From: Mycoplasma wenyonii str. Massachusetts
GTDB lineage: Bacteria; Bacillota_I; Bacilli_A; Mycoplasmatales; Mycoplasmoidaceae
Reading direction: 5' to 3'
Length of the DNA: 24,000 nucleotides
Assembly: GCF_000277795.1 (NCBI RefSeq)
Contig: NC_018149.1
Coordinates: forward strand, 317,160 to 341,159
Shown here: positions 1 to 24,000 of the stretch, in pieces
Layout: each line of letters starts with the position of its first letter
Numbering within the stretch: position 1 is the first letter of the stretch
Made by a program: the position numbers and the translations under genes
The notes under the pieces: model-generated
What the model was told of the DNA's origin: nothing
The model's input: the letters and a program-made list of their open reading frames with translations, nothing else
Database searches by the model: none

Positions 1-2
1 GT

Positions 3-413
3 AAACAAACCAGAAAATGGTCTAGAACTGGCTATCTGTATATAAATTCAACTAACAGTAAAAAGAAAAAGGCTTGGACAAGACTTGATAAAAATGGCAC
101 TGCTGGATTTTTTGTAGTTCACGACTTAAAGTTCATCCGAGAAACACTAAAGGACGATTGAAGATATAGATATGAAAAATATGGGACTATTCTGGGAGGA
201 AAAGAAAGACCAGCCTCTTATTGCAAAGCAAAAAGTAGTAGTAAAGAATGTGGAAAAGTAATTGATATTCCTCTTTCTTCAAACAGAAACTACTATATAT
301 GAGATCCAACTAAGACAAAAATAAAAGGTAAAAAGATGTACACAGAAAGTAATTCAATATTGCCTTGAAAAATAAATTCTGAGTTAACTTTCACTTCAGA
401 ACAGGTTGGTTAA
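3..413 (+). CDS. hypothetical small Cys-containing paralog, C-terminal part (5-prime end outside window)
   Basis: Frame is open from the window edge to TAA 411-413 only if three in-frame TGA are read as Trp. No recognisable family. The C-terminal Cys...Cys...Trp pattern (CKAKSSSKECGKVIDIP...W) resembles neighbouring paralogs. Confidence 0.5.
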
Positions 414-457
414 GGAAAAGAATGTATAATTTAAATCAACTACTCAAATAAAAAGAT

Positions 458-1105
458 ATGGTTTTCCTTCTTAAAGCACTATTAGGAATTGGTGCAGTTG
501 GAGGAGGTGTTGTCGCTCCTATTGCACTTTCTCAACAAACCAACACTGCTATAGAAAGAAAAGAAGGAAGTATCGCACAAGAGCTTGGTTCTACTTTTGG
601 AAAGACAATTTCTAATTTTGGAAATGCTTTATTTGAAGTAAGAGCTAGAGAAGCTTCTCATCAAAAAATTAGTAAGGCTTTAGGTCAAGTTGCTAATTGC
701 AAATTACTTCAAAATCCTGAAAATCCAGAATATTGACTAAATGCTCTTTATGCTTGCAATGAAAATAGCAAAGGAGAAGTGGAATTTAAGTATGTAAGTG
801 CAAGAAATGATTTTGTTTCTAGAGCTGAAGATGGTTTTGTAAAGAAAGTTTCAAGAGTTAATTACGTAGAAGAAGGTGTTGATAGTTCAAAAACTGCTAA
901 GTTGGAATTAACTTTGGAAGATGGATCAAGAAAAGATTGAAAAGTAGCTGTTGGTAGTGGATGAAAGCATTTCAGCAATGTGAATCTAAGTAAGCAATGC
1001 ACAATTAGTTCTAAAGGGGCAGGAGGAAATGATCTTAGATGTGTATTACAAGGATGAGAAGGAAAAGAAAATAGTCACTCTGTTTATCGATTTTCAATCT
1101 TTTAG
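458..1105 (+). CDS. hypothetical membrane-anchored/secreted paralog (215 aa)
   Basis: ATG 458. Track ORF 458..736 continues through in-frame TGA at 734, 938, 962 and 1055 to TAG 1103-1105 (checked codon by codon). N-terminus MVFLLKALLGIGAVGGGVVAPIAL is hydrophobic. Confidence 0.75.
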
Positions 1106-1155
1106 TTAGACTCCTTTTACTTTAGAGTAGGACATAAAGTAACTCAAAATCAAGA

Positions 1156-1710
1156 GTGTCTTTTCTCACTCTCCTAGCTAAAGTTGTTTCTGTAGTTGTA
1201 GTTACAGGAACTGCCATTGCTACTCCTTTAGCTCTGAATGCAAGAAAATCTTCTTCTACAACAACTCAAACTCCTTTAACTTCAACACCAACAACAACAC
1301 CAGTAGTAAATTATGAAGATTTAAGTGTGCAAGGAATGGCAAGTAGAGGTGAGTGTTGAGAAATTCCAATAACTCCTCAAGATTTCCTTAAGTTTTTAGT
1401 TTGCGCTAACCAAGACAAATACTATTTGTATGATTCCAGTAATTCAGATAACAACAAAGCTTTCACAAAAATCAAACAAATATCAGGCCCAACAAATAAA
1501 CAAATAACCATTACTTTAGATGGAGAAGAAGAAACTAAGACTTTGACTCTTTTAAGTGAGCAACTAAAGAACAGCCCAGAAAATCTAGATTTCTATAATA
1601 ACTGTAATACTGGGACAGCAGATCAAGGAATGATACTTTCTTGCAGTACCAACTCTCCAAAATCTTGAAATGGCTTTATTGAATTAACTAATTTTCAATT
1701 AAATAAGTAA
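1156..1710 (+). CDS. hypothetical membrane-anchored/secreted paralog (184 aa) with Ser/Thr/Pro linker
   Basis: GTG 1156. Track ORFs 1156..1359 and 1426..1668 are one frame joined by TGA 1357 and extended past TGA 1666 to TAA 1708-1710. Hydrophobic N-terminus is followed by SSSTTTQTPLTSTPTTTP. Confidence 0.7.
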
Positions 1711-1724
1711 CAGTTAATTAGACC

Positions 1725-2399
1725 CTAAATAATCACTATAGGTTTAAAGCCATTTGCTCACTGTAATTTATTAGTGCCTCCCTGAGTTTCTATTTTTATT
1801 GAATAAACTTTTTGACCCTTACTTGTGTATTTATTTTTTAATTGACCATCAACATCACTTTCTAATTTAAAAGTAACTTTGTTTAATGGAAGTGTTATCA
1901 TTCCATCTTCACTACCAGACAAATCAAAAATTTTACTGTGACAATCTATGTTAGATCCAAATATTTCACTGTCCTCGCCCCCACCAGTTTCTCCTAGTTG
2001 AATTCGAGTTTGCTTTCTTATTTCATAATCGGTCGAAGTTCCTCCTGTGCCTCTTACCGAACCTTGCAAACTCTTGTCGGTGTATTGTGTAGGAACATGA
2101 AGTTTCGTTCCTTTCATTTTTTTAAAATATCCTTGGGCCCGCAATTCAAGCTCGGCATTTTCTTGTATATCACTTACTGAGTCCTTAACAGTTAGATAGA
2201 TTCATAAATCTGAATAAGTTGTTTGACCGTCTCTGTCGTATGGATTATTAAAACAAGAAGATAAATAGAACTTACTGCCAGACTTTATTCTTCATATATT
2301 TGGAGGGTCTCAGTTTGGAGTAGAAAAAGAAGCTCACCCAACTACACTACCAGCCCCAACAATAGAAGTTACAAGAAACTTTGCACCTAAACCTATCAA
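1725..2399 (-). CDS. surface-paralog family member (224 aa) sharing the C-terminal signature of the 14.9-21.4 kb array
   Basis: TTG 2399 is the only start after in-frame TAA 2418-2420. Leader is MIGLGAKFLVTSIVGAGSVVGW. Track ORF 1758..2144 extends both ways through TGA codons. The track stop at 1758 is TGA, and reading on gives ...LQWANGFKPIVII then TAG 1725-1727. Confidence 0.7.
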
Positions 2400-2518
2400 G
2401 TTAAGAGTTTTTGATTGTTAATTCCGCGAAGATCTTTGTCTCCGTCTATATTTCTAAGATTAATATTTTCTTCGCCCAGTACCCCACAACTAAATAAAAA
2501 TATGTTTTCTTAATAACT

Positions 2519-3286: not shown

Positions 3287-3814
3287 ATGTTATATAAGTT
3301 GATGATGATAGGAAGTATGGCCTCTCTTGGACCTTGAGGTGGAAGCATTGCTTACTTTATTGGCCCCCCCCTCTGGATTAGGGATATTGCTCAATTAAAA
3401 GCAACAAGAGATTGCTATGTCGCGCTTGACGCTAGAGTTACTAACAATAAGTTGCTCGCTTGCGGTTGAAAATCGGATAATTCAACACTTCACTTCTATT
3501 TGTATTCCGCTACCCCCAGTACATCAATTTCTTTGGTGAAAACTTTGGAAGTTAAACCTATAGATGAAGATCTAAGAAACTCAGAAAGGGATTTTTCTGT
3601 CAAATTCTTATTTGGTGGTCGTGCCGCTTTGAAAGTAAATAGATGAACTCTGGAAAGTAATCCATGAGTAAAAGAAGGAGGAAAGATTTTTGATCTAACT
3701 GGTTTCTGCAAAACAACCAAACTTTCTACTTTTCAGGGTTCACAAGCAAAATCTTTGGTTTGTGTTTGAGGAGAACAGAGCGGTCAACAAGAAACTTGAC
3801 CTGCACTTACTTAA
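3287..3814 (+). CDS. poly-C-containing paralog, in frame (phase ON), 175 aa
   Basis: ATG 3287. Leader is MLYKLMMIGSMASLGPWGGSIAYFIG. The C8 tract 3364-3371 is read as Gly-Pro-Pro-Leu, and the frame stays open through six TGA-Trp codons to TAA 3812-3814. Confidence 0.65.
3364..3371 (+). repeat. C8 homopolymer inside CDS 3287..3814 (codon 26-29)
   Basis: Counted directly: tggCCCCCCCCtctgg. Confidence 0.9.
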
Positions 3815-3867: not shown

Positions 3868-4555
3868 GTGGCAACTATAGCTTATATGCTCTTTGGTAGC
3901 GCAGCCGCTATGGTACCTACTGTGAGTAGTATGTCCTACTTCGTTGCCCCCCCCCTTGGTTCAAAATCTTCACAGAACTCTTTCTAAGACAACTACCAAT
4001 TTAAGTAAAGAAGGTATACAGTGTTTTCAGGTTATTTCAGGAAATGAGGTTGAGAAGGAAGATGAAGCCTCTAACACGCAACGATCGAGAGGAACCTCGG
4101 CATATGTACTGACTTGTTTAAAAAAACAATCAAGTAGTACAGTAGGACAGAGTGTAGCGATTGAAGATGATTTTGATTTTTACTACTACAACTCTAAAGA
4201 ATTTAGTGATCATATCTTCCCCATCAGCACAGTGCAAATGAGTGTTTATGGGGATGGAGTAATAACTATTAAGTTATTTTGAAAAAACTTTGGTTTTTTC
4301 GAAAACAGAGTCACCATGAGAGGGAATAGAGATATTGAGAAAATTCCTTGAGTTAATAAGGAAGGAGAAGAAGTCCCTTTTGCAACTTTCTTGCTAAAAG
4401 ATAAAAATGAAAAATTTTGTCAAAAAACTGAATTAACAAGTTGAAATTTAGGTGCTTATGGTAATCAATCACACATACAGTGTTCTTTGGGAGAAGGGCA
4501 GCCGCCTCTTATATGACGTGAATTTAAATTTACTAACCAAGCCTCAAGACAGTAA
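3868..4555 (+). pseudogene. poly-C-containing paralog of 3287..3814, leader out of frame with body (phase OFF)
   Basis: GTG 3868 or ATG 3886 gives the leader ...AAAMVPTVSSMSYFVAPP. C9 tract lies at 3947-3955. The leader frame stops at TAA 3985-3987. The next frame (track ORF 3944..4282) stays open through TGA codons to TAA 4553-4555. C8 or C11 would fuse them. Confidence 0.6.
3947..3955 (+). repeat. C9 homopolymer at the leader/body junction of 3868..4555
   Basis: Counted directly: gttgCCCCCCCCCttgg. Confidence 0.9.
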
Positions 4556-4767: not shown

Positions 4768-5152
4768 ATGTTTTCCATCTTTCTTACAAAATCTTGTTTT
4801 GGTGCGTTAACAGTCGGAACGACAATAGCTTTACCAATACTTCTCACTCAGGGGGTATCGGGGGGGGGCTGTTGTATCTCAAAACTCTTTAGAACAAGCC
4901 GCCTCTCAATCTAGACTACAGACCACAAGAAACACTAATCAAGTAGAAAGAGAGGCCACCCCAAAAGAACAAATAGAAAAAGATTTAGCATTTGATGAGT
5001 GTCAAAGAGAAAATCTTAAGTTTCTAATTAATGATGGCAACGGTGGAACTGAGTGGGTAAATAGTAAAGAATATAGCCCTTCTAAATATGGATCTTTCTT
5101 GGAGTTTTCTTATGATGAAAACCTGTGTAGCAGAGAAGTTACTAAAAAATAA
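4768..5152 (+). pseudogene. poly-G-containing small paralog, leader out of frame with body (phase OFF)
   Basis: ATG 4768. Leader is MFSIFLTKSCFGALTVGTTIALPILLTQGVS. The G tract starts at 4860 and spans a line break, so I count 9-10 G. The leader frame stops within about 55 nt after the tract. A different frame is open towards TAA 5150-5152 (...DLAFDECQRENLKFLINDGNGGTEWVNSKEY...). My base count here is uncertain by 1 nt. Confidence 0.45.
4860..4869 (+). repeat. G9-G10 homopolymer at the leader/body junction of 4768..5152
   Basis: tatcGGGGGGGGGGctg across the 4860/4861 line break. Exact length is uncertain by one. Confidence 0.8.
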
Positions 5153-6574: not shown

Positions 6575-7671
6575 TTACTTAATTAGGCTGATAGTGTAGG
6601 GAAGAGAGAAGCTCACATTTCAAGGTAGTTTGTGACCTTCTTTAGTCTTTAATGTCCCCTCTTTTATCTCTGTATAGCTAGGATCTCAGAGATAGTATTG
6701 TCTGTTCTTGTTTAGAGGGACTTTTGATTCCTTGCCTTGATTGGTCGCCCCTAACTCTATTAAGCTTTTGAAATTTTTACCTTTGTTTGCCATCTCTTCT
6801 CACTTACTCTTTAACGTTCCATTCATAAACATAAAATCATGAACTACCACATAAGGTCTGTTGTCACTTCTGGGTTTCCCAGTGTAAAGATTTTCATGTT
6901 TGCTTGTTTTACTATTTCACACTTTTATTGGAGCACTTCTCGATAATTTGGTTACATTTTTGCCATCATTTATTTGTCTTTTTCCGAAAGTAGCAGTTAA
7001 TGTCAGACCTCTTTCAAAACCTAAAACTGCAACTCGTTTATCTTCTTTGTTTTTTAATTCAGTTTCAATAAGGCCCGGTTGATTCTCTAAAGATTCAAAC
7101 TCCTTAAAAAAAACTTTATCGTCACAGTAACCATTTTGTATTGTGGTTGGACCATGATCGTCTGTGCATTTAGCTTTTATTCCCCTATGCTTATCTTTCA
7201 CTAAAGAAACTAGACCTGTAACTTCAACATCTTTAGTGTTTACATTGACTCCCATTAAAAGGAATTTTTTGGGAGTTAAACCATTACGTGATTGCGTATC
7301 AGTCTCTTTTGAAAATTGTCTATCTCCCACTTGTTCAACTAATCTAAGCTCTCCTTCTGCATCTTTTAAGTTTCTCTTTACTCTCTTGCTTTTTTCTGTG
7401 TGATCGAAGTAGTTTGTTTCTTTCGCTCTTGCTACATAACCATATGAATAATTAGTTGGTTTGTCAAATGCATTGGATAATCATCTGGAATTGAAAACTG
7501 GAGAAATGTAACCTGTTTGTCAGTTAGTCCCTACTTCGTTATTTGTTACTTCTATTAATCTATCTGACTGCCCCCCCCGAGCGTTAAGTAATTAGAACTA
7601 AATAAGAAAGAAGGGCCGCCTAGACTACCTAAAGTAATTAATCCTTTACCTAAAGTTAGAGCTCTGAACAA
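6575..7671 (-). pseudogene. poly-G-containing larger paralog (about 365 aa if fused), leader out of frame with body (phase OFF)
   Basis: TTG 7671 gives the leader MFRALTLGKGLITLGSLGGPSFLFSSNYLTL. G8 on the coding strand is C8 at 7571-7578. The leader frame stops at 7555-7557. The body frame (contains track ORF 6917..7330) is open from 7593 down through TGA codons to TAA 6575-6577. G9 or G6 would fuse them. Confidence 0.55.
7571..7578 (-). repeat. G8 homopolymer (C8 on plus strand) at the leader/body junction of 6575..7671
   Basis: Counted directly: gactgCCCCCCCCgagc. Confidence 0.9.
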
Positions 7672-8445: not shown

Positions 8446-8447
8446 CT

Positions 8448-9095: not shown

Positions 9096-9155
9096 AAATT
9101 AATAACTTTCTCACCCCTTTTATTAGTGAAAAATGGAAAAAAGATGAATTTTTAG

Positions 9156-10091: not shown

Positions 10092-10146
10092 TCTCTCTAA
10101 GGTAGTCTCATTCCCACTCCTGAAGGAGTAGGAAATAAAGACTTAA

Positions 10147-10623: not shown

Positions 10624-10643
10624 AGATACTTTTATTTAAAGAA

Positions 10644-12494: not shown

Positions 12495-14897
12495 ATGACT
12501 GATAGTTCCAATCTACAAGCATTCAACAATGCCTTACCACTTTTAATTTCTAGAAATCTAGTAGTATTCCCCTTTACCAAGAGTGTTATTGAGGTTGGTA
12601 GAGAATGTTCTCTAGCTTCTATTAAGTATTCACTCTCTGAATGTAAGGGAGAGCTAATAATACTAGCACAAAAAGACTATGATATTGATTTCCCCTTACC
12701 AGTAGATCTATATAGAGTTGGAACACTTTCAAAGGTTAGTGTGCTTAAAGAACACAAAGATGGTTCTTTAACAGTTAAGGTAGAGGGGCTTCAAAGAGTA
12801 AAGATTGATCACCCAAAGATCACCAGAAAAACAGGATATGAAATACTTGGTTCTATGTGATTTGCTAACTATGAATTACTTAAGGAAAGAAATACCTCTT
12901 TCCTGAAAAACAAATCAGATATAGAACAACTATTTAAGTACTTTGAAGAGCTGTTTGATGTAAAAGGAAGTGATTACGAAGAGATCAAACAACTATTTAC
13001 AGCAGAAAAAACAGAAGGATCTAATAAAGACTCCTGTTGTAAGTTAATAGATAAATTATGTAGTTTTTGACCACAAGGAGAAAGAGATGGAGTAGAGATT
13101 AAGCAAAAGTGACTAGAAGAGTTAAGTGTTTCCAGAAGAATAACTCTGATGCTAGATTATGAATATTTATCAGAGGCAGAGAAAGATGAAATTAATAGCT
13201 CTATCTCTAAGAAGGTAAATAGAAATATCTCTAAGCAACAGAGAGAGTTCTATCTTAGAGAGAGAATAAAGGTTATTAAGGAAGAGTTAGGAGAAGGTAT
13301 CTCTAGAGATGGAGAGCTACAAAAGTTCAGAGATTGATTAAAGAAAGAGAAAGCCCCAGAACACATTAAAGAGAGAGTAAAGGAAGAGATAAAGAAATTA
13401 GAGTATTCAAGTGTTATTTCCTCCAATGAAAGTTTGATTACTCACACTTACTTAACTTGACTAATCTCTCTTCCTTGAGATAAGAGCTCTAAAGACCAAA
13501 AGGTTATCTCAAAAGTTCAAAAAGAATTGGATAAGAACCACTATGGATTAGATAAAGCTAAAGAGAGAATATTAGAGTTTGTGGCTGTACAGAAGAAAAC
13601 TAAGAATCTTCATGGAACAATTATTTGCTTATCTGGACCTCCAGGAGTAGGTAAGACCTCTTTAGCTCAATCTATAGCTAAAGGACTTAAGAGAGAGTGT
13701 GTAAAGATCTCACTAGGAGGTTTAAGTGATGAAGCTGAGATAAGAGGTCACAGAAAAACTTATATTGGAGCTATGCCTGGAAGAATTATTAAGGGATTAA
13801 AGCAAGCAAAGGTAAATAATCCTGTATTAATACTTGATGAGATAGACAAGATAGTAAGTAGTGGACATGGAGATCCTCTATCAGCCTTACTAGAGGTATT
13901 AGATCCTAAGCAAAACGATAAGTTTGTAGATAACTACATAGAAGAAGAGGTAGATCTCTCAAAGATTATGTTCATAGCTACAGCTAACTATGAAGATAAT
14001 ATCCCTGAGGCTTTGTTAGATAGATTAGAGATTATTAGACTAACCTCCTACACAGAAAAAGAGAAATTAGCTATTGCAAAGAATGGACTAATTAATGAGG
14101 TATTAGAAGAACATGGATTAAAGGAAGAGGAGCTTATCTTCTCAGATGAAGCAATTACCTACATCATTCAGAGATATACAAGAGAGGCTGGAGTTAGAAA
14201 TCTAAGACAGTGTTTATCTCAAATAGCTAGAAAGTTCATTCAAAGACAAGAGTTAGATAAAGAGTTAAAGGAATTGAAGGTTGAAGTTGAGGTAGTTAGA
14301 GAGTATCTTTCAAAGGAAAAATATGAACACACAGTTAAGGACGAACTCTCAATACCTGGAGTGGTTAATGGAATGGCCTATACAGAATATGGGGGAGATC
14401 TTCTTCCTGTAGAAATTAATTACTACTCTGGAAAAGGTAACTTAATACTTACTGGAAATCTAAGAGATACTATGAAAGAATCCGCTAGTGTTGCACTCTC
14501 TTACATAAAAGCCAATGAAAGTGAATTTAAGTTAGGAGACACTAAGTGATCTGATATAGATATCAACTTACATGTACCAACTGGAGGAGTTCCAAAAGAT
14601 GGTCCTTCAGCAGGTATTACCATTACTACAGCTATTTTGTCTGCCTTTAGAAAGGTACCTATTCCAAGCAATATAGCTATGACTGGGGAGATGACTCTTA
14701 GAGGTAAGGTATTACCAATAGGAGGGCTTAAGGAAAAAGTTATCTCTGCTGTTAGAGGGGGAGTGGATACTATCTTTTATCCAAAAGAAAGTGAAAGACA
14801 TCTAGAAGATATTCCAGAAGAGATACTAAGTAAGATCCGACTAAAACCTATAAGACATTATTCAGAGTTATATAAGGAATTGTTTTCTAATAAATAG
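12495..14897 (+). CDS. lon: ATP-dependent Lon protease (800 aa)
   Basis: Track ORFs 12495..12860, 13149..13337, 13527..14549 and 14637..14897 are one frame joined by TGA-Trp codons (12858-13149 checked codon by codon). Motifs include Walker A GPPGVGKTS, Walker B LILDEIDK and protease motif PKDGPSAG. Confidence 0.95.
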
Positions 14898-14919: not shown

Positions 14920-15506
14920 ATGTTCATTGCAAGAGTACTTTTTACTGGAATTGCTAGTTCAGTAGGAATAGGTGGTTTAGTTCCTCTATCTTCTCTTGTG
15001 GGGGGGGCGATCCAACAGCCTGAATAGTTAATTCTAGAGATTCTTTTCCTTTATTCACTTGTTCAAACAATAGTCATAATATAAAGATCTCTTTAACTCC
15101 CAAGGGCGGCAAAAACAATTTAACAACTGGAAAAGAAATTGTTTTTAAGGGATATGACGAAAAGAATAAAAGATCAGTTGAGTTGTATGATAGAGATTTT
15201 GCTGGATTATCACCATTTGAATTAATCATTTTTCAATCTGGCACAAGCAAGTTAACTGAAGCAGGATCGGGAATGGACAGTTACAAATATGGCGGAGATC
15301 TTTATTGTGAAGGAAATGTGTTTAAGGTTGAAACTTACAACCAAAATTTTGGGGAAGATAAACAATGATCAAAAGGATTTGAAAAAATCAATTTGACTTT
15401 AGGTCAATGTGACAGTAAAAATGGAAGACAAGAATGTTCTATTGTGTTTGGAGGAGATGTTGGTCTTAAGTGAAAAGAAGAATTTAAGCCAAGAGTAATT
15501 ATTTAG
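14920..15506 (+). pseudogene. array copy A (subfamily 1), poly-G switch, phase OFF
   Basis: ATG 14920. Leader is MFIARVLFTGIASSVGIGGLVPLSSL. G8 lies at 15000-15007. The leader frame stops at TAG 15025-15027. The body frame (contains track ORF 15183..15368) is open from the tract to TAG 15504-15506. G9 or G6 would fuse them. Confidence 0.65.
15000..15007 (+). repeat. G8 homopolymer, copy A
   Basis: Counted directly: cttgtGGGGGGGGcgatcc. Confidence 0.9.
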
Positions 15507-15531: not shown

Positions 15532-16137
15532 ATGCTTATTCCAAAGGTTTTTTTCCTTGGTTTAGCAAGTTCAGTAGGGATAGGTAGTCTGGTGCCATTA
15601 TCTTCTCTTACGGCGAAGGGAGATGATCCAACAGCCTGAATAGTTAATTCTAGAGATTCTTTTCCTTTATTTACTTGTTCAAGCGATAGCGGTAGTCATA
15701 AGATAAAGATTTCTTTAAAGTTCGAAAACAATTCCGCAGGAACAAATAATAAAAAGATTATTTTTGAAGGCTATGATGAGATTCAACGAAAATCATTTGG
15801 TCTATATGACACAGAACAAGCAAATTTAGCTCCCGTTAAATTAATCATTTATGGAACAGGTACTGTAAAGTTGGTTGACGCAGGATCAGGAATGGATAGC
15901 TATCAACTTCCCTCAAGTGGGCTGTCTTGTAAACCAAATATTTTTGAAGTTACCAAGTACAACGGAAATTACGGGCATGAACTTAGCGATAAGCAATGGG
16001 AAAAAGAATTCAAAGATATCGCACTTACTTTAGGTGATTGTGTTGATAAAGATGGAAGCAAAGAATGTCTAATAAATATTGGAGATCAAGTTGGATTGAA
16101 GTGAAAAACAGAATTTACACCAAAAGCAATTATTTAA
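15532..16137 (+). CDS. array copy B (subfamily 1), tract interrupted, constitutively in frame (201 aa)
   Basis: ATG 15532 to TAA 16135-16137 in one frame (includes track ORF 15871..16104). GCGAAGGGAGATGAT replaces the G run. The product reads ...SSLTAKGDDPTAWIVNSRDSFPLFTC...ECLINIGDQVGLKWKTEFTPKAII. Confidence 0.8.
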
Positions 16138-16225: not shown

Positions 16226-16816
16226 ATGTTGATTCCTAAATTATTTCTTGGATTAGCCAGTACAGCGGGAATAGGTGGTTTAGTCTCCTTGTCTTCGATT
16301 GCAGGGGGGGGAGACGATCGCAATATCTGAAGAGTAAATTCTCAAACATCTTTTCCACTATTTACTTGTAGCCTCTCTGGTTCTAAAATATCTGTTTCCC
16401 TAAAACTTAAGGAAGGCATAGGTCAATTACAAGACAATAAGCAGGTAGAATTTTGAGGCGACGGAAACGCAGAAGGAGAAACAATAAATTCAGTTAATTT
16501 AAGTAGTTCTGCAACTACAAATTTAAAAGAATATAAGTTAACTATTTTTAAAACATCTGGAAGAAGCAAGTTAGAAGTAAAAACAGATAGAGGCAGTAGC
16601 TTAAGTGAGACTCTCTGGTGTGATACCAATGTTTTTAAAGTTACAAAAGAGACAATAACATCAGGAATTTCTCAGGCATGAGAGAATGGATTTGATCAAA
16701 TCAAGCTGACTCTAAGTGATTGCGATGGAAATGGAAGAAGAGGGTGTTCAATAAAGATTGGTGATCAAGTTGGCTTGGAGTGAGCAAATGACTTTAAACC
16801 AAAAGTAATTATTTAG
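16226..16816 (+). CDS. array copy C (subfamily 2), poly-G switch, phase ON (196 aa)
   Basis: ATG 16226. Leader is MLIPKLFLGLASTAGIGGLVSLSSIA. G8 at 16304-16311 is read as GGG-D. The frame is open through TGA codons to TAG 16814-16816 (checked codon by codon over the first 300 nt). C-terminus is CSIKIGDQVGLEWANDFKPKVII. Confidence 0.8.
16304..16311 (+). repeat. G8 homopolymer, copy C
   Basis: Counted directly: attgcaGGGGGGGGagacg. Confidence 0.9.
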
Positions 16817-17521: not shown

Positions 17522-18108
17522 ATGTTCATAGCAAGAGTACTTTTTACTGGAATTGCTAGTTCAGTAGGAATAGGTGGTTTAGTTCCTCTATCTTCTCTTA
17601 TAGCGGGGGGGGCGATCCAACAGTTTGAATAGTTAAATCTAAAGATTCTTTTCCTTTATTCACTTGTTCAAACAATAGTCATAATATAAAGGTTTCTTTA
17701 GCTTTTAAGGAAAATACACATGATTTAAGCGAGAGAAAAGAAATTGTTTTTAAGGGCCATAACGAAAATAGCAAAGAAGAGATTAGTTTACATGATGATG
17801 ACCAAGCTGGAGTAGCGCCATTTAGATTAACTATTTTTGGAACAGGAACAGTTAGGTTGGATGAAACAGGAAATTGAGAATATAGCCACAAATATGGTGG
17901 AAATCTTATTTGCGATAGAAATGTTTTTCATGTAACCAAATTTCAAGATTATGGAGGCGAACAGCAATGAGAAAAAGAATTTAAGGCAATTTCACTTTCT
18001 TTAGTTGGCTGTGAGGATAAAAGTGGAAGGAAAGAATGTTCTATAAATATCGGAAGTGGAGTTGATCTAGAGTGAAAAAATGACTTTAAACCAAAAGTAA
18101 TTATTTAA
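17522..18108 (+). pseudogene. array copy E (subfamily 1), poly-G switch, phase OFF
   Basis: ATG 17522. The leader differs from copy A at 1 of the first 78 nt. G8 lies at 17605-17612. The leader frame stops at TAG 17630-17632. The body frame is open to TAA 18106-18108 (...FPLFTCSNNSHNIKVSLAFKE...ECSINIGSGVDLEWKNDFKPKVII). G9 or G6 would fuse them. Confidence 0.65.
17605..17612 (+). repeat. G8 homopolymer, copy E
   Basis: Counted directly: atagcGGGGGGGGcgatcc. Confidence 0.9.
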
Positions 18109-18788: not shown

Positions 18789-19394
18789 ATGCTAGTTGCA
18801 AGAGTACTTTTTACTGGACTTGCTAGTGCAGTAGGAATAGGCGGTGTAGTTTCTGTGTCTTCTTCTGTGTCTGGGGGGGGCGATCCAACAGTTTGAAAAG
18901 TAGACTCTTCAAACTCCCCTTTCCCCCTGTTTTCTTGTAGTAACTACAAAAGTCAGATATTAATTTCCCTGAAATTTGAAGAAACTCCATTGACTCCACC
19001 CACAAATGGTAAGAAAATAAAATTCCACGGTAGCGAAAAATACACCGGCGAAGAAATTAGTTTATATGGTAGTTCTTCAGGTGCAGACAACACACAACCA
19101 TACAAATTAACTGTTTTTAAGGACGGAAGTGGTAATGGCAAATTAACAACAGATAATTTTGAAATTAATAAAAAATATGGTACAGATCTTTGATGTTACC
19201 CTACCTCCTTTAAAGTAACATCTGACACTTCCGACTCCTCTAACAATTCTCCTAAAACATTTGAAAGTATCTCTTTAACTCTTGAAAGTTGTGCTCCGCG
19301 AGGAGAAGGCAAAAAGCAAGAGTGTTCAATAAAAATCGAAGGGAGTTCCGGGTTTAGCTGAAGAGATGACTTTAAGCCAAAGGTGATTATTTAG
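18789..19394 (+). CDS. array copy G (subfamily 1), poly-G switch, phase ON (201 aa)
   Basis: ATG 18789. Leader is MLVARVLFTGLASAVGIGGVVSVSSSVS. G8 at 18873-18880 is read as GGG-D. It is in frame with track ORF 18990..19193 and runs on to TAG 19392-19394. C-terminus is ECSIKIEGSSGFSWRDDFKPKVII. Confidence 0.8.
18873..18880 (+). repeat. G8 homopolymer, copy G
   Basis: Counted directly: gtgtctGGGGGGGGcgatcc. Confidence 0.9.
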
Positions 19395-19482: not shown

Positions 19483-20069
19483 ATGTTGATTCCTAAATTA
19501 TTTCTTGGATTAGTTAGCGTAACCGGAATAAGTGGTTTGGTCTCATTATCTTCCGTCGCGGGGGGGATACTCGGGATATTTGAAGAGTAAGCACTAATCC
19601 AACTTTTCCTTTATTTACCTGTAAGCAAGGTTCAGTAAAGGTTTGAATTTCACTGGAATTAAAAAATAAAGAAAGTCCGCTCAAGTTATCGAATAACGGC
19701 GAGATTATCCTTGTTGGGCGCGAAAATAACTCAGAAGAACAAACAATAAGCTCAAGAGTTGCTGGATCTTCAAATACAAAAAAATACAAATTAAGTGTTT
19801 TTTCTTCGGGAAGCAGTAATTTAGAAGTAAAAGAGAATAGTAGCGACTATGGCACGGTAATCTGATGTAGTACCAATGTTTTTAAAGTTACAGGAGAAAT
19901 GAGTCGAGTTTCGGGTAGCAATTCTACATCCTGATCAAAGAATTTTGATCAAATCAAAATGAATCTAAATGATTGCGATAAAAACGGCAGAAAAGAATGT
20001 TCTATAAATATCGGTAGTGATGTTGGACTTAAGTGAAAAGATGATTTCCAACCAAAAGTAATTATTTAA
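19483..20069 (+). pseudogene. array copy H (subfamily 2), poly-G switch, phase OFF
   Basis: ATG 19483. G7 lies at 19560-19566. The leader frame stops at TAA 19588-19590. The body frame is open to TAA 20067-20069 (...DTRDIWRVSTNPTFPLFTCKQGS...ECSINIGSDVGLKWKDDFQPKVII). G8 would fuse them. Confidence 0.65.
19560..19566 (+). repeat. G7 homopolymer, copy H
   Basis: Counted directly: gtcgcGGGGGGGatact. Confidence 0.9.
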
Positions 20070-20123: not shown

Positions 20124-20710
20124 ATGTTGATTCCTAAATTATTTCTTGGATTAGTTGGTTCGGCAGGGATTGGGGGTGTAGTCTCACTATCTTCTATTGC
20201 GGGGGGGGCGACGCCCGCAATGTCTGAAGAGTAAATTCTCAAACATCTTTTCCACTATTTACTTGTAGCCTCTCTGGTTCTAAAATATCTGTTTCCCTAA
20301 AACTTAAGGAAGGCATAGGTCAATTACAAGACAATAAGCAGGTAGAATTTTGAGGTGATGGAAAAATCGGCCCAATCAACTTAAGTGAGACTAGCCCTTC
20401 AAGCCAAAAAACATATAAATTAACAGTTTTTAAATCTCGTGGAAAAAGTCAGTTAGAAGTAGGGGGAGATGGCAGTAGTGGCTTAGGCGAGACTCTTTGA
20501 TGCGATACTAATGTTTTTAAAGTTATAGAAGGGCGAGCAACAACAATTCATGGAAGCGCCTCTCAAGGTATATTAAAAGAACTAAAAGATATTTCACTTA
20601 CTTTAGAAGAAGGTTGCTCAAAAGATAACAAAAAAGAATGCTCAATAAAGGTTGGTGATCAAGTTGGCTTGGAATGGGCAGATGACTTTAAACCAAAAGT
20701 AATTCTTTAG
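20124..20710 (+). pseudogene. array copy I (subfamily 2), poly-G switch, phase OFF
   Basis: ATG 20124. G8 lies at 20201-20208. The leader frame stops at TAA 20232-20234. The body frame is open to TAG 20708-20710 (...WRVNSQTSFPLFTCSLSGSKISVSLKLKEG...ECSIKVGDQVGLEWADDFKPKVIL). G9 or G6 would fuse them. Confidence 0.65.
20201..20208 (+). repeat. G8 homopolymer, copy I
   Basis: Counted directly: attgcGGGGGGGGcgacg. Confidence 0.9.
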
Positions 20711-20826: not shown

Positions 20827-21427
20827 ATGTTGATTCCTAAATTATTTCTTGGATTAGCCAGTACAGCGGGAATAGGTGGCTTAGTCTCTCTATCTTCTCT
20901 TGCGGGGGGGGGATACTCGGGATATTTGAAGAGTAAGCACTAATCCAACTTTTCCTTTATTTACCTGTAGAGCTTCTGGTTCAGAGATATCTATTTATCT
21001 GAAACTCAAAAATGGTGTAAGTCATTTACGAGATAGTCAGCAAATAGAATTTTGAGGCGACGAAAACACAAGAGAAGGGGCAGCCGGCCTAATTAATTTA
21101 AGTGACATTAGTACCTCAAATCAAAAAACATATAAATTAACAGTTTTTGATCCCAGCGGAAACAGCAGGCTAGAAGTAGGAACAGATAGTAGCAGTAGCT
21201 TATACGAGACTCTTACTTGCAAACCTCTCGTCTTTAAAGTTACAGAAGGACAAGCACAAGCAATTTCATCAAGCTCCTCTAAAGGTGTATCGAAAGAACT
21301 AAAAAACATCCCACTTACTTTAGAAAACTGTGATACGAATGATAGCAGAAAACCATGTTCAATAAAGATTGGAGGAGATGTAGGACTTAGTTGAAGAGAT
21401 GACTTTATTCCAAAAGTATTTCTTTAA
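20827..21427 (+). pseudogene. array copy J (subfamily 2), poly-G switch, phase OFF
   Basis: ATG 20827. G9 lies at 20904-20912. The leader frame stops at TAA 20941-20943. The body frame is open to TAA 21425-21427 (...DTRDIWRVSTNPTFPLFTCRASGSEISIYLKLKNG...PCSIKIGGDVGLSWRDDFIPKVFL). G8 or G11 would fuse them. Confidence 0.65.
20904..20912 (+). repeat. G9 homopolymer, copy J
   Basis: Counted directly: cttgcGGGGGGGGGatact. Confidence 0.9.
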
Positions 21428-21465: not shown

Positions 21466-21877
21466 GATAATTGAGCAAAATAATAAGCCATGTTCTGTTT
21501 TTATCTAGAGTTAGATAAAAGTAGGTAATTAATCTAATCAATTTGATTCCTAAGCTTCGTTCACTTCCTTAGCTCAAGTTCCCTTACCAATATTTAGGTT
21601 TCTTGCTTGAGGGGTTTGCCTCGTTTCACACTCTATATTTCTATAGAGCTCGTCTCTGTGGCACTTTACAGAGAATTACTCTTGTAAGTTATTCACTTAT
21701 TTAGAAAGGTTCTCCGCCATCAACTAGTCTATTACTAGCCGTTAAGTTTTATTTTTTATGTACTTACACAAACACTACAGTCATCTCAGACTATGCAAGC
21801 ATGGACTTTCCTCTCACTTAACTAAACTACAATAAGATAGTTAGTTAAGAAGCTACCTACCACTTCACTCAAATATC
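21466..21877 (-). ncRNA. rnpB: RNase P RNA (type B-like)
   Basis: The minus strand carries the universal P4 motifs. These are GAGGAAAGTCCATGCTTGC (complement of 21803-21813 and flank) and ACAGAACATGGCTTA (complement of 21484-21498). A P3-like hairpin TTAACTAA...TTAGTTAA lies at 21817-21847. Candidate P1 pairing is GATATTTGAG (21868-21877) with CTCAATTATC (21466-21475). The ends are approximate. Confidence 0.8.
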
Positions 21878-21926
21878 TATATAAAGGGTTAAGGTTAACC
21901 CTCAGTATCCCATAAATATTTAAACC

Positions 21927-22412
21927 ATGAGTGTTAGAAAATATCACTCTATTAAGTCTGAGCAAGTAAAAGAGCTTTCTCAAAAGTTAAAGTCTTCTAA
22001 CTCCTTTGCAAGTCTTAACTACAGCACACTAGGAGTCAAATCTTCCCACTGACTAAGAAAAGAGGTAAAGAAGTTTGATGGAGAGATTAAGTTTGTCTCC
22101 AATAATGTACTAAGAAGAGCACTTAGTACTGTTGTTGACTCTCCTATTAAGTTAAGTGGACAGAATCTAGTCTTAATAGTTAATTCAGAGAAGATTGCTC
22201 CTTTAAAGCTATTTGGAGAGTTAGTTAGGAAATACAAGTTACTAAAAATAGGAGTTGTTTATTGTGATAAGCAACTACTAACTGAAGAACAAAAAGAGTA
22301 TCTTCCTTCTTGATCAGAGAAAGAAGATGCATATGCTAAATTAGCCTATTTACTGCTTTCTCCTATACTTTCTTTGTTATTCTTATTGAAGAGTATCTCC
22401 GAGAAACAATAA
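21927..22412 (+). CDS. rplJ: 50S ribosomal protein L10 (161 aa)
   Basis: ATG 21927 to TAA 22410-22412 through two TGA-Trp codons. It lies directly upstream of rplL. The sequence is L10-like: MSVRKYHSIKSEQVKELSQKLKSSNSFASLNYSTLGV.... Confidence 0.85.
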
Positions 22413-22443
22413 AATTTATTTTCAGTATTAACTTTTTATTTGT

Positions 22444-22854
22444 ATGTCAGAAGAAAGTAAGTCTAATCTAACTGAAAAAACTCAAAACTTAATAGAACAA
22501 ATTAAGGGGTTTACTGTATTAGAACTAAATGAATTAATTAGAGGTCTAGAAAGTGAATTTAAGGTTAGTGCAGCTAATTTCTCTGCAGGACCAGCAACTG
22601 CTAAGTCAGATGATTCAGCTGAAGACAAAGCAGATGTAAATAAAGACCTACACTTAGTTTCTGCAGGAGGTAACAAGATTGGAGTTATTAAGTTAGTTAG
22701 AGAGTTAACCGCTTTAGGACTAATGGAAGCTAAGAAGATAGTTGATAGTGCACCTGGATTAGTGAAAGCAGATATTCCTGCTTCACAATTTGATGAACTA
22801 AAAGCTAAGTTTGAAGCTGTGGGGGCTAGTGTGGAATTTAAATTGCCATCCTAG
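22444..22854 (+). CDS. rplL: 50S ribosomal protein L7/L12
   Basis: Track ORF of 136 aa with the typical ...VLELNELIRGLESEFKVS... N-domain and KIGVIKLVRELTALGLMEAKKIVDSAPGLVKADI...KAKFEAVGASVEFK C-domain. Confidence 0.95.
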   Translation: MSEESKSNLTEKTQNLIEQIKGFTVLELNELIRGLESEFKVSAANFSAGPATAKSDDSAEDKADVNKDLHLVSAGGNKIGVIKLVRELTALGLMEAKKIVDSAPGLVKADIPASQFDELKAKFEAVGASVEFKLPS

Positions 22855-22882
22855 TTCTTTAAGAGTCTTACAAGAGATATAT

Positions 22883-22956
22883 TGGTGCCGAATAAGTGAA
22901 TCGAACACTTCTCAGCTCATTACCATTGAGCCGTTTTACCACTAAACTAATCCGGC
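22883..22956 (-). tRNA. tRNA-Thr (anticodon GGU), CCA encoded
   Basis: The reverse complement folds by hand as a cloverleaf: GCCGGAT-TA-GTTT-AGTGGTA-AAAC-G-GCTCA-ATGGTAA-TGAGC-TGAG-AAGTG-TTCGATT-CACTT-ATTCGGC-ACCA. The acceptor stem has 7 bp with one G-U. The T-loop is TTCGATT. The anticodon loop has U33 and A37 flanking GGT. Confidence 0.85.
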
Positions 22957-22982
22957 TTAGCTACCAATTTCAATAATACTTT

Positions 22983-23297
22983 ATGCCTACTACTCTAAAG
23001 ATCAAACTAATCTCTTTTGACTACAGACTATTAGATCAATGAGTAAAGAAGATAGTAGAGTTAGCTTTAAAGTATGACTCTACTATTAAAGGTCCTATTC
23101 CTTTACCTACTAAGACTAAGTTGTATACAGTCTTAAAGTCTCCACACGTTAATAAGCCTTCTATGGAACACTTTCAAAAGAAAGAACACAGAAGACTTAT
23201 TTTGATCTCTGAGTATGACAATAGACTATTCTCTTACTTTCAAAGAATGAGTCTTCCAGCCTCTCTAGACTTAAGACTCTCTTTAATTAGTAGTTAG
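22983..23297 (+). CDS. rpsJ: 30S ribosomal protein S10 (104 aa)
   Basis: ATG 22983 to TAG 23295-23297 with one TGA-Trp. S10 motifs include IKLISFDYRLLDQW...GPIPLPTK...YTVLKSPHVNKPSMEHFQKKEHRRLI. Confidence 0.9.
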
Positions 23298-23308
23298 TTG
23301 AATAGACA

Positions 23309-23998
23309 ATGTACAGAGAAGTTATATGTCAAAAGATTGGGATGAGTAGTATCTTTAGTGAGTCTGGAAGTAACTTACCTGTAACTTTCTTAAAACCTGT
23401 AGCTTTACAGGTTTTAGAGATAAAGACTAAAGATAAATTCGGATACAACTCTTTAGTAGTTGGAGTAGGAGAAGAGTGTCCAGCTAAAAAGTTAATTAAA
23501 CCAGTACAGGGTCAATTCACAAAACACTCTCTTCCACTAAGAAGAAAGATTACTGAACTTAAGTGAGATGGAGAAAAAGAATATAAGGTAGGAGAGTTTG
23601 TAGAGTTCCAAAATCTTTTTCAAGAGGGAGAAAAGATTAAGGTACAGGGAATTTCTAGAGGTATGGGTTTCACTGGAGCAATTAAGAGATGGAACTTTGC
23701 CACTAGCCCAAAGACTCACGGAGCAGGTTATCCCCACAGATTCCAAGGATCTCTAGAAACAGGGAGAGGAGGTAGATCTCCGCAAAAAGTGTGAAAAGGA
23801 AAGAAGATGTCAGGACATATGGGTAATGAAACTTGCACTATAAGAAATCTAAGAATTCTCTATATAGATACAGAGAAATCTCTAATAGCTATTAAAGGAT
23901 CTATACCCGGAAGAAAGAAATCTTTAGTGAGAGTTAGATCTCTACACAAAGCAAAAGCTATAGTTCCAGAGAAGCTATTAGTTAAGAACACTAAATAA
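23309..23998 (+). CDS. rplC: 50S ribosomal protein L3 (229 aa)
   Basis: Track ORFs 23309..23566 and 23807..23998 share a frame and are joined by TGA-Trp codons. The sequence includes ...GISRGMGFTGAIKRWNFATSPKTHGAGYPHRFQGS...KKMSGHMGNE. TAA 23996-23998 overlaps an ATG (TAATG) that probably starts rplD at the window edge. Confidence 0.9.
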
Positions 23999-24000
23999 TG

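What the first reader, a model, noticed from the sequence alone, without database searches (positions are those of the whole stretch)
1..24000. All eleven G/C runs of 7 nt or more in the window sit at the same position of the same class of gene, and none lies in housekeeping DNA
Scanning both strands by eye, I found runs of at least 7 G or C only at 3364, 3947, 4860, 7571, 15000, 16304, 17605, 18873, 19560, 20201 and 20904. The roughly 7 kb housekeeping block (7882-14897) and the ribosomal-protein/rnpB region (21466-24000) contain none. G and C each look like roughly 16-17 percent of bases (estimated by eye, not computed). On that basis a rough expectation for G8 or C8 runs in 24 kb is about 0.03, so eleven is a very large excess.
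Basis: partly seen in the sequence, partly recalled or inferred. Interest (0 to 1): 0.7.

Follow-up and report, generated by a model that had tools for sequence, protein, structure and literature searches.

The report
Poly-G/C on-off switches in hemoplasma surface genes
In this stretch of the cattle blood parasite Mycoplasma wenyonii, eleven runs of 7-9 G or C sit just after the signal-peptide-like start of small lineage-specific surface-protein genes, putting three in frame and eight one base out of frame: the classic signature of slippage-driven phase variation, apparently not yet described for hemoplasmas.

Summary
The window has 11 G/C runs of 7 nt or more (one G7, seven of 8, three of 9), none of length 6, against 0.14-0.5 expected. 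A/T runs match chance. The window is Mycoplasma wenyonii str. Massachusetts (TGA = Trp). Every run lies on the coding strand, 61-93 nt after the start codon. That is the junction between a hydrophobic leader and the mature part of a small lineage-specific ORF. These ORFs belong to at least four sequence-unrelated families. Three genes are in frame. Eight are exactly one base out of frame, yet have intact leaders and intact bodies. Core genes hold no such run here or in 43 kb sampled from relatives, whereas lineage-specific ORF DNA holds 0.6 per kb. Runs of 5-6 are equally common in both classes. The best explanation is homopolymeric-tract contingency loci: replication slippage switches each gene ON or OFF independently. 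Switching itself was not shown. This is a known mechanism (Campylobacter poly-G, Neisseria opa). I found no hemoplasma paper that mentions it, and the deposited annotation truncates the OFF genes. It is a new member of a known kind, of moderate interest.

The parts
3287..3814 (+). Family B gene (175 aa). C8 tract at 3364-3371, starting at codon 26. In frame (ON).
   Evidence: The orthologue in another strain (L148) also has 8 and is ON.
3886..4555 (+). Family B gene (222 aa if ON). C9 tract at 3947-3955, codon 21. OFF: needs -1. As sequenced it yields a 33-aa product.
   Evidence: It is 23 % identical to the 3287 gene. The body has a single (terminal) stop in its own frame, against 9 and 14 in the other frames.
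4768..5152 (+). Orphan leader-bearing ORF (127 aa if ON). G9 tract at 4860-4868, codon 31. OFF: needs -1.
6575..7671 (-). Family C gene (365 aa if ON; WEN_01575). G8 on the coding strand at 7571-7578, codon 32. OFF: needs +1. The start is inferred to be the TTG at 7671.
   Evidence: The deposited annotation gives only 251 aa (P0033). The paralogue WEN_03280 reads ...SLGGGGQLD after the same leader.
14920..15506 (+). Family A gene (195 aa if ON). G8 at 15000-15007, codon 27. OFF: needs +1.
15532..16137 (+). Family A paralogue without a tract. The junction reads GCGAAGGGAGAT, so it is a fixed in-frame relative.
16226..16816 (+). Family A gene WEN_01630 (196 aa). G8 at 16304-16311, codon 27. ON.
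   Evidence: The AF2 model has pLDDT 80 and is all-beta from residue 33; the tract-coded Gly residues lie in a low-confidence linker.
17522..18108 (+). Family A gene (195 aa if ON). G8 at 17605-17612, codon 28. OFF: needs +1.
18789..19394 (+). Family A gene (201 aa). G8 at 18873-18880, codon 29. ON.
19483..20069 (+). Family A gene (195 aa if ON). G7 at 19560-19566, codon 26. OFF: needs +1.
20124..20710 (+). Family A gene (195 aa if ON). G8 at 20201-20208, codon 26. OFF: needs +1.
20827..21427 (+). Family A gene (199 aa if ON). G9 at 20904-20912, codon 26. OFF: needs -1.
   Evidence: It is deposited as a leaderless 175-aa protein starting MRGGDTRD (P0006).
9099..14897 (.). Core-gene block (mraW, mraZ, rplU, aldo/keto reductase, rpsI, lon). 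No G/C run of 6 or more.
21466..24000 (.). rnpB, rplJ, rplL, tRNA-Thr, rpsJ and rplC. No G/C run of 6 or more.

Best explanation
The tracts are hypermutable homopolymeric switches, that is, contingency loci. Each poly-G or poly-C run lies inside the reading frame, between a 20-31-codon hydrophobic leader (signal peptide or membrane anchor) and the folded mature domain of a small lineage-specific, presumably surface-exposed, protein. Gain or loss of one base by slipped-strand mispairing at replication moves the mature domain in or out of frame with the start codon. Out of frame, only a 33-48-residue leader peptide is made. Each gene therefore switches ON and OFF independently and reversibly, and a population of this uncultivable blood parasite displays many combinations of surface proteins (2^11 for this window alone). 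Shown here: the excess, the position, the frame states, the intact OFF genes, the exclusion from core genes, and recurrence in unrelated families and in related strains and species. Inferred: the slippage rate, reversibility, surface exposure and a role in immune evasion.
For: (1) There are 11 runs of at least 7 against 0.14-0.5 expected, with no run of 6. A/T runs are at chance. (2) All 11 are on the coding strand, start at codons 21-32, and follow a hydrophobic leader. (3) Three are ON and eight are OFF, each OFF gene by exactly one base. Both directions occur (+1 in five, -1 in three), even among close paralogues. This ratio is what free switching predicts, about 1/3 ON. (4) Each OFF gene keeps its start codon (TTG inferred for the gene at 7571), its leader and a full-length body, with only the terminal stop in its own frame against 6-16 stops in the other frames. 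(5) The homopolymer, not the amino acid, is what is conserved. It is poly-G (Gly) in families A and C and the orphan, and poly-C (Pro) in family B. All three codon phases occur. GGG makes up only 26 of 161 Gly codons and CCC 8 of 104 Pro codons in core genes, and none of the 15 GG/GGG/PP peptides there is encoded as a run. (6) Tracts occur in at least four blastp-unrelated families. Within family A they are kept in 7 of 8 close paralogues despite 38-67 % amino-acid identity. (7) Across six loci from four related genomes, core genes (42,970 nt) hold 0 runs, lineage-specific ORF DNA (34,820 nt) holds 21, and RM genes hold 2. Runs of 5-6 are equally frequent in core and lineage-specific DNA (0.54 against 0.69 per kb). 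Poisson P(0 in core) = 6e-12. Another hemoplasma contig (L155) has 5 tracts, all 51-121 nt after the start, 2 ON and 3 OFF. (8) In a wenyonii-clade hemoplasma the conserved GGG of ribosomal protein L4 is encoded GGA GGC GGT. The haemofelis group encodes it within a G7 run. (9) The tract-coded residues lie in a low-confidence linker before the folded domain, so changes in Gly or Pro number are tolerable. (10) Established knowledge, not tested here: Mollicutes lack MutS/MutL mismatch repair, and G/C tracts of 8 or more switch at roughly 1e-4 to 1e-3 per division in mismatch-repair-less Campylobacter.
Against: No read-level or longitudinal data were available, so within-population length variation and reversibility are not shown. 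The one orthologous tract that could be compared between strains has the same length in both (8 and 8). Seven of the eleven tracts are in one tandem array and could share an origin. About half of the leader-bearing paralogues in the window lack a tract. Surface exposure is inferred only from the leaders: there are no Pfam hits, and no lipobox in family A. OFF calls depend on the accuracy of homopolymer lengths in the deposited assembly.
Confidence: 0.8

Rival explanations
1. The tracts are a neutral mutational by-product. In a genome without mismatch repair, short G/C runs expand by slippage. They are purged from essential genes but tolerated in dispensable paralogues. On this view the OFF genes are decaying pseudogenes and nothing is selected.
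For: Tracts are confined to non-core genes. Eight of eleven are out of frame. Tracts are born and lost by point mutation between strains: GGGAGGGGG against G8, and CCCTCC against C6. The comparative-genomics paper suspects many paralogues are pseudogenes (PMC3958358).
Against: Position is far from random. All 11 window tracts fall in a zone of roughly 30 nt per gene at the leader junction. That zone is my estimate of about 4 % of the paralogue DNA. In the relatives, all but five tracts lie at the 5' end of a leader-bearing ORF. Every OFF gene is exactly one base from ON and otherwise intact. Seven of 8 family A members keep an unbroken run at about 70 % nucleotide identity.
Confidence: 0.1
2. 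The tracts are real, but the OFF states are homopolymer length errors, or a population consensus, in the deposited assembly. All the genes are actually in frame.
For: Homopolymer lengths are error-prone. I could not check reads or the sequencing platform: the genome announcement PMC3457230 is not held.
Against: OFF states also occur in independent assemblies: INIFAP02 (L001, L153) and Logan SRR26391074 (L155). The errors would have to go in both directions. Three tracts of the same length (8) are in frame. Even if this were true, the tracts would remain hypermutable sites at a switch position.
Confidence: 0.06
3. Programmed recoding: transcriptional slippage or ribosomal frameshifting on the G/C run produces full-length protein constitutively from the out-of-frame genes.
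For: Homopolymers allow re-pairing in any frame. Transcriptional slippage rescues frameshifted genes in some reduced genomes (own knowledge; mostly on A/T runs).
Against: The shift required is 0, +1 or -1 among close paralogues with near-identical flanks, which does not fit one programmed event. No conserved downstream stimulatory element was looked for or seen. Slippage on G/C runs of 8-9 is inefficient compared with A/T runs (own knowledge).
Confidence: 0.03
4. Protein-level constraint: a Gly- or Pro-rich flexible linker is needed after the leader, and the runs are simply its codons.
For: The tracts encode GG/GGG or PP in a low-pLDDT linker.
Against: GGG and CCC are minority codons. All 15 GG/GGG/PP peptides in core genes avoid runs, and the leader's own GIGG motif is mostly GGA ATA GGT GGT, never a long run. 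Eight genes do not even read the linker in frame. The tract-less paralogues have no Gly/Pro linker.
Confidence: 0.01

Closest known systems
Campylobacter jejuni poly-G/poly-C contingency loci (29 loci with tracts of 7 or more in NCTC11168; PMC4965091)
   Same: An AT-rich small genome. G/C homopolymers of 7-11 nt far above chance, mostly intragenic, confined to non-core surface-related genes. ON/OFF by frameshift. No mismatch repair (own knowledge).
   Different: The Campylobacter genes are mostly glycan-modifying enzymes, with tracts at various positions. Here the genes are small leader-bearing protein paralogues, with the tract at the leader/mature junction. Density is much higher here: 11 in 24 kb.
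Neisseria opa multigene family (CTCTT repeats in the leader-peptide coding region; PMC3960869) and pilC (poly-G in the signal-peptide region; own knowledge)
   Same: A multigene family of surface proteins. The repeat lies in the 5' part encoding the leader. Each copy switches independently by slipped-strand mispairing, giving combinatorial expression.
   Different: The opa repeat is a pentamer, not a homopolymer. Opa proteins are outer-membrane beta-barrels of a diderm. There is no sequence or fold relation (no Pfam hit; no PDB fold match). It works like opa but is not a member.
Homopolymer-controlled variable surface proteins of other mycoplasmas (M. hominis Vaa and M. fermentans P78, poly-A in the 5' coding region; M. 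hyorhinis Vlp, poly-A in the promoter; own knowledge)
   Same: Mollicutes. Homopolymer slippage controls a surface protein. In Vaa and P78 the frameshift lies near the N-terminus.
   Different: Those use poly-A, not poly-G/C. They are single genes or promoter spacers. The proteins are lipoproteins, often with tandem repeats. Family A has no lipobox Cys (first Cys at residue 48) and the window has no tandem repeats in these genes.
General 5'-biased homopolymeric tracts in prokaryotic genes (Orsi et al., PMC2831843); Gardnerella nanH3 poly-C (bioRxiv 10.1101/2020.09.16.300947); Bifidobacterium breve pilus G-tract (PMC9187656)
   Same: An intragenic homopolymer near the 5' end gives reversible truncation of a surface protein.
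   Different: Those are single loci or a weak genome-wide bias for A/T tracts. Here a whole set of paralogues carries G/C tracts.
Earlier proposals for hemoplasma phase variation (VNTRs found with Tandem Repeats Finder; PMC3196708, PMC3496576)
   Same: The same biological question: paralogous families, cyclic bacteraemia, persistence.
   Different: Those papers point to intergenic VNTRs and hsdS repeats. None mentions homopolymers or frameshifts. TRF scoring cannot report an 8-9 nt run (one search finds none here).

Membership tests
Simple-sequence-repeat contingency loci (phase variation by slipped-strand mispairing) | A repeat tract long enough to be hypermutable (G/C of 7 or more) and over-represented against chance | tested here: met
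   11 observed against 0.14-0.5 expected. Bimodal length distribution.
Simple-sequence-repeat contingency loci (phase variation by slipped-strand mispairing) | The tract is placed so that a length change switches expression (inside the ORF or the promoter) | tested here: met
   All tracts are in the ORF at codons 21-32. Three are in frame and eight are one base out of frame, with 33-48 aa truncated products.
Simple-sequence-repeat contingency loci (phase variation by slipped-strand mispairing) | Switched-off alleles are otherwise intact, so the change is reversible rather than decay | tested here: met
   Bodies of OFF genes have only the terminal stop in frame. Leaders and start codons are intact.
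Simple-sequence-repeat contingency loci (phase variation by slipped-strand mispairing) | Tract length is polymorphic within a population or between isolates at the same locus | tested here: inconclusive
   Only one orthologous tract could be compared (window 3364 against L148), and it is 8 in both. Paralogues show lengths 7, 8 and 9. No reads were available.
Simple-sequence-repeat contingency loci (phase variation by slipped-strand mispairing) | Observed reversible ON/OFF change of the gene product | not testable with these tools
   This needs expression data from infected animals; the organism is uncultivable.
Simple-sequence-repeat contingency loci (phase variation by slipped-strand mispairing) | Confined to surface, host-interaction or restriction-modification genes and absent from core genes | tested here: met
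   0 runs in 42,970 nt of core genes, 21 in 34,820 nt of lineage-specific ORF DNA, and 2 in the RM-classed region: one inside hsdS and one in a small membrane-protein ORF beside it. Surface location is inferred from the leaders only.
Neisseria Opa family | Homology to the Opa outer-membrane beta-barrel | tested here: not met
   No Pfam family hit for any tract gene. The AF2 model has no PDB match at E <= 0.001. The resemblance is in mechanism only.
Mycoplasma variable lipoproteins (Vlp/Vsp/Vsa/Vpma type) | A lipoprotein signal peptide with a lipobox Cys | tested here: not met
   Family A leaders have no Cys before residue 48. Only the tract-less N18101 has LIGSC.
Mycoplasma variable lipoproteins (Vlp/Vsp/Vsa/Vpma type) | In-frame tandem repeats giving size variation, or a site-specific inversion switch | tested here: not met
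   TRF finds no tandem repeat in the paralogue genes. Invertible elements were not specifically searched for.

The most novel reading that the evidence does not exclude
Hemoplasmas of the M. wenyonii clade may carry one of the densest sets of phase-variable genes known. About half of the lineage-specific leader-bearing genes, from several unrelated families, plus hsdS and a DUF31-type protease, have converged on a G/C tract at the leader/mature junction. If the window is representative of the 263 paralogue-family CDSs reported for this 650-kb genome (PMC3958358), there could be on the order of 100 independent switches. That would provide the long-sought mechanism for cyclic bacteraemia and lifelong persistence, and it could be followed directly by tract-length sequencing of blood samples.
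Probability: 0.35. Interest if true: 0.65.

Novelty: new member of a known kind. Interest (0 to 1): 0.45.

Why it matters
Hemoplasmas cannot be cultured. How they persist and cause cyclic bacteraemia is unknown. Their genome papers speculate about paralogue families and VNTRs but give no concrete switch. These tracts provide a specific mechanism that can be checked by sequence alone. Tract lengths can be read by amplicon or deep sequencing straight from infected blood, without culture. The finding also corrects the annotation: OFF genes are deposited as leaderless, N-terminally truncated 'hypothetical proteins' or are not called at all. That misleads pan-genome, epitope and vaccine-candidate analyses. 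Finally, the tract in hsdS in a related strain suggests a phase-variable methylation system.

Tried and rejected
An exact DNA pattern in genome contigs gave no hit. Exact-protein look-ups of rpsI and WEN_01630 were not on record. The whole-genome test could therefore not be run, and loci from relatives were used instead.

(2) Finding family A loci in genome contigs. The alignments were too divergent for the tool. A single-protein query gave nothing. A degenerate W-x-V-x5-FPLF[TS]C pattern gave 76 hits, all unrelated organisms, about the chance number I had estimated beforehand (~70).

(3) Word-indexed protein searches returned only 4-5 relatives. The exhaustive profile search gave 30, so the family is lineage-restricted.

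(4) The promoter/terminator scan of the array was no better than shuffles. No conclusion was drawn from it.

(5) Tandem Repeats Finder found nothing in the paralogues.

(6) Pfam gave no domain for any tract gene. A Foldseek search of a confident AF2 model against the PDB gave no significant match, so the biochemical function of the proteins stays unknown.

(7) I considered the tract as a recombination boundary between a conserved 5' cassette and variable bodies. Leader identity (0.75) is only slightly above body identity (0.67-0.68), so this is not supported.

(8) Logan contig L156 starts at a tract. That fits length heterogeneity, but repeated leader k-mers explain it equally well, so it is not used as evidence.

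(9) Illumina two-colour poly-G artefacts were rejected. The tracts are short, embedded in conserved flanks, present in independent assemblies, and include poly-C on the coding strand.


Full report
**What the window is.** Under the standard bacterial code the window breaks into short ORFs. With TGA read as Trp it resolves into long genes. Rfam finds a class B RNase P RNA at 21479-21864 (-) and a tRNA. The product of the gene at 16226-16816 is 100 % identical to WEN_01630 of Mycoplasma wenyonii str. Massachusetts, whose contig is 650,228 bp. Lon is 82 % identical to that of M. wenyonii INIFAP02 and 73 % to 'Ca. M. haemominutum'. The layout is as follows:
- 1-7881: a cluster of lineage-specific small ORFs.
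- 7882-9098: a split NgoFVII-like restriction endonuclease.
- 9099-14897: mraW, mraZ, rplU, an aldo/keto reductase, rpsI and lon.
- 14898-21465: a tandem array of eleven small paralogues.
- 21466-24000: rnpB, rplJ, rplL, tRNA-Thr, rpsJ and rplC.

**The observation.** There is no other G/C run of even 6 nt. The length histogram falls to 12 runs of length 5 and zero of length 6, then jumps to 1, 7 and 3 runs of lengths 7, 8 and 9. Markov models of order 0-2 fitted to the window predict 0.14-0.51 runs of at least 7 per 24 kb and 0.02-0.12 runs of at least 8. A and T runs of at least 7 match the order-0 expectation: 8 against 8.6, and 5 against 5.4. The excess is therefore specific to G/C. The two core blocks have no G/C run of 6 or more, although their G+C content (0.33-0.34) equals that of the paralogue blocks.

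**Anatomy.** Each tract was oriented on its coding strand. In every case a start codon is followed by 20-31 mostly hydrophobic codons, for example MLIPKLFLGLASTAGIGGLVSLSSIA. The tract comes next, and then a long open frame. The tract begins 61-93 nt after the start, at codons 21-32, and all three codon phases occur. Nine tracts are poly-G on the coding strand (Gly codons). The two at 3364 and 3947 are poly-C on the coding strand (Pro codons). Three genes are in frame: 3364, 16304 and 18873. The other eight are out of frame by exactly one base. Five need +1 and three need -1, and as sequenced they would yield only 33-48-residue leader peptides. For the gene at 7571 the leader starts at a TTG (7671, minus strand); this start is an inference. 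In the OFF genes the body frame contains only its terminal stop, while the other two frames contain 6-16 stops. These are intact genes, not decayed ones.

**The genes.** All-against-all BLASTP places the tract genes in at least four unrelated groups:
- Family A: seven tract genes in the array, 38-67 % identical to each other, about 195 aa, with four conserved Cys and a C-terminal FKPKVII. It has tract-less relatives at 15532, 16873, 18101, 1725 and 2519.
- Family B: the genes at 3287 and 3886, 23 % identical to each other.
- An orphan at 4768.
- Family C: the 365-aa gene at 7671-6575, related to the partial ORF at the left edge of the window.

None has a Pfam hit. A profile of family A finds only 30 cluster representatives among 1.84 billion proteins, so the family is lineage-restricted. 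An AlphaFold2 model of WEN_01630 is confident (pLDDT 80, pTM 0.76) and all-beta from residue 33. Residues 11-29, which are the leader plus the tract-encoded glycines, are of low confidence. Foldseek finds no PDB relative: best E 0.017, TM no higher than 0.27. Family A leaders have no lipobox cysteine, so I read them as signal peptides or N-terminal anchors. This is an inference.

**The run is selected at the nucleotide level.** In the core genes of the window GGG is 26 of 161 Gly codons and CCC is 8 of 104 Pro codons. None of the twelve GG/GGG or three PP peptides there is encoded as a run. The GIGG motif a few codons upstream in the same leaders is mostly written GGA ATA GGT GGT and never forms a long run. 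Tract-less paralogues have no Gly/Pro linker at the junction. One of them (15532) reads GCGAAGGGAGAT where its closest relatives have G8. Family A members are only about 70 % identical at the nucleotide level, yet 7 of 8 keep an unbroken run. The chance that an 8-nt stretch stays identical at that divergence is roughly 0.06 per comparison (my arithmetic).

**Related genomes.** The source genome itself could not be retrieved. I therefore sampled relatives through lon and through family A homologues, neither of which was chosen by tract.
- M. wenyonii INIFAP02 has, right after lon, an ATG, a 17-codon leader, a G8 run and an out-of-frame body (L001).
- INIFAP02 contig 6 (L149) has a G8 run 16 codons into a paralogue (ON) and a G7 run at about codon 62 of another. 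There is none in 8 kb of ribosomal-protein, secY and rpoA genes.
- INIFAP02 contig 17 (L153) has six tracts in 9.4 kb. Four are at leader junctions, one is in a loop of a small membrane protein, and one is a G8 run that splits hsdS.
- A syntenic locus from another hemoplasma (L151) has a single tract. It is a C8 run directly after ATG-T of a small leader-bearing ORF inserted between rplW and rplB.
- A further hemoplasma contig (L155) has five tracts (G9, G9, G8, C9, G8), all 51-121 nt after the start, 2 ON and 3 OFF. One of them is in a PF01732 protease-like gene.
- A second Massachusetts-like strain (L148, 89.5 % identical to window 1036-3826) keeps the 3364 tract at length 8. It also has a G8 run where the window reads GGGAGGGGG, and a C6 run where the window reads CCCTCC.

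Pooling the window with L001, L148, L149, L151 and L153 gives this tally:

| DNA class | Bases | Runs of 7 or more | Runs of 5-6 per kb |
|---|---|---|---|
| Core genes | 42,970 | 0 | 0.54 |
| Lineage-specific ORF DNA | 34,820 | 21 | 0.69 |
| Restriction-modification genes | 8,320 | 2 | 0.72 |

The Poisson probability of zero runs in core DNA, at the rate seen in lineage-specific DNA, is 6e-12. The conserved GGG of ribosomal protein L4 is written GGA GGC GGT in the wenyonii-clade locus. In the haemofelis-group species it forms part of a G7 run.

**Mechanism.** The pattern is that of homopolymeric contingency loci. Slipped-strand mispairing changes the tract by one base and moves the mature domain in or out of frame. 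Each gene switches independently. The position just after the leader has two advantages. An OFF allele makes nothing antigenic, and the tract-encoded residues sit in a flexible linker where their number does not matter. The 3:8 ON:OFF ratio is what unconstrained switching among three frames predicts. Mollicutes lack MutS/MutL, and G8-G9 tracts switch at about 1e-4 to 1e-3 per division in mismatch-repair-less Campylobacter; both statements rest on my own knowledge and were not tested here. Not shown here: length heterogeneity within a population, reversibility, surface exposure and any link to immune evasion.

**Rivals.**
- *Neutral accumulation in dispensable genes.* This explains the confinement to non-core genes. 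It does not explain the positional precision, the one-base distance from ON in all eight OFF genes, or their otherwise intact frames.
- *Assembly error.* This could explain individual OFF calls. But OFF states recur in independent assemblies and in both directions, and it would not alter the nature of the tracts.
- *Programmed recoding.* This is unlikely, because close paralogues need shifts of 0, +1 or -1.
- *A protein-level Gly/Pro linker.* Codon usage contradicts this.

**Comparison with the known.** The closest analogues in mechanism are the C. jejuni poly-G/C loci (29 in NCTC11168; PMC4965091) and the Neisseria opa family, whose CTCTT repeats lie in the leader-coding region of each of several paralogues (PMC3960869). 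Others are the 5'-biased homopolymers described by Orsi et al. (PMC2831843), Gardnerella nanH3 (bioRxiv 10.1101/2020.09.16.300947) and the B. breve pilus switch (PMC9187656). Mycoplasma precedents use poly-A in Vaa, P78 and Vlp (own knowledge), and those proteins are lipoproteins; family A fails the lipobox and tandem-repeat criteria. There is no homology to any of these proteins.

Hemoplasma genome papers attribute possible phase variation to VNTRs found with Tandem Repeats Finder. They do not mention homopolymers or frameshifts. No paper in the searchable library links hemoplasmas with poly-G or homopolymeric tracts. TRF cannot score an 8-9-nt run, which may explain the omission. The deposited annotation starts the 20827 gene at the tract (MRGGDTRD..., P0006). 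It gives the 7671 gene only 251 of its 365 residues (P0033). The absence of a report is limited to the open-access library; the genome announcement itself was not readable.

**Verdict.** The feature is a textbook mechanism in a group where it seems not to have been noticed, so it is a new member of a known kind. Its value is practical. It gives a concrete switch for hemoplasma antigenic variation that can be tested by sequencing alone, and it corrects the annotation. Interest is 0.45.

Noticed in passing
window 7882-9098 (-): An NgoFVII-like restriction endonuclease is split into two overlapping ORFs: the N-terminal PLD domain at 8448-9098 and the C-terminal B3-like domain at 7882-8472. No methyltransferase gene lies next to it. 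In M. wenyonii INIFAP02 the homologue is intact (387 aa, L153 5663-6826) and sits beside a C5-methyltransferase. The window copy is probably a degraded orphan; the split lies near short A runs.
   Followed up: partly
L153 8150-8157 (M. wenyonii INIFAP02 contig 17): A G8 tract inside hsdS splits the type I specificity gene into a 276-aa part and an out-of-frame C-terminal part. This could be a phase-variable methylation system.
   Followed up: partly
window 16226-16816 (WEN_01630) and family A generally: The mature domain gives a confident all-beta AlphaFold2 model (pLDDT 80, pTM 0.76) with no PDB match (best TM <= 0.27). It has four conserved cysteines, which is unusual for a mollicute surface protein. 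The fold and function are unknown.
   Followed up: partly
window 20827-21427 and 6575-7671; proteins P0006, P0033: The deposited annotation of the source genome calls the out-of-frame genes as leaderless, N-terminally truncated proteins (175 of 199 aa; 251 of 365 aa). The ORF at 4768-5152 seems not to be annotated at all, judging by my count of locus tags.
   Followed up: yes
window 14898-21465 versus L151 10001-11785 and L001 12401-15466: The space between lon and rplJ holds eleven paralogues in strain Massachusetts. In a syntenic hemoplasma locus (L151) it holds only one paralogue plus two short remnants. A 97.6 %-identical strain (L156) carries a different paralogue upstream of the 18101 gene. 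The array is expanding and being reshuffled between strains.
   Followed up: partly
L151 15095-15948; L002 about 16100-16700: Two tandem small leader-bearing ORFs are inserted inside the S10 ribosomal-protein operon between rplW and rplB. One has a C8 run directly after the start codon. A homologue in 'Ca. M. haemominutum' carries a G9 run near its 3' end, where a shift would change only the C-terminal tail.
   Followed up: partly
L003 22034, L004 15393, L019 7602 and 15483: Haemofelis-group hemoplasmas carry G7 runs inside core genes: rplD (RGGGVAFG) and a subunit of RNA polymerase. The wenyonii-clade loci sampled have none. Avoidance of long G runs in core genes may be specific to the clade.
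   Followed up: partly
L148 909-916 versus window about 2910-2918; L148 1521-1526 versus window about 2302-2307: Between two strains 89.5 % identical, a G8 run exists at codon 67 of the 2519-gene orthologue where the window has GGGAGGGGG. A C6 run exists at the leader junction of the 1725-gene orthologue where the window has CCCTCC. Tracts are born and broken by single substitutions.
   Followed up: yes
L155 7693-9040 (Logan SRR26391074): A PF01732 (mycoplasma protease-like, DUF31) gene in another hemoplasma has a C9 run on its coding strand after a 32-codon leader and is out of frame. The called gene is therefore N-terminally truncated.
   Followed up: no
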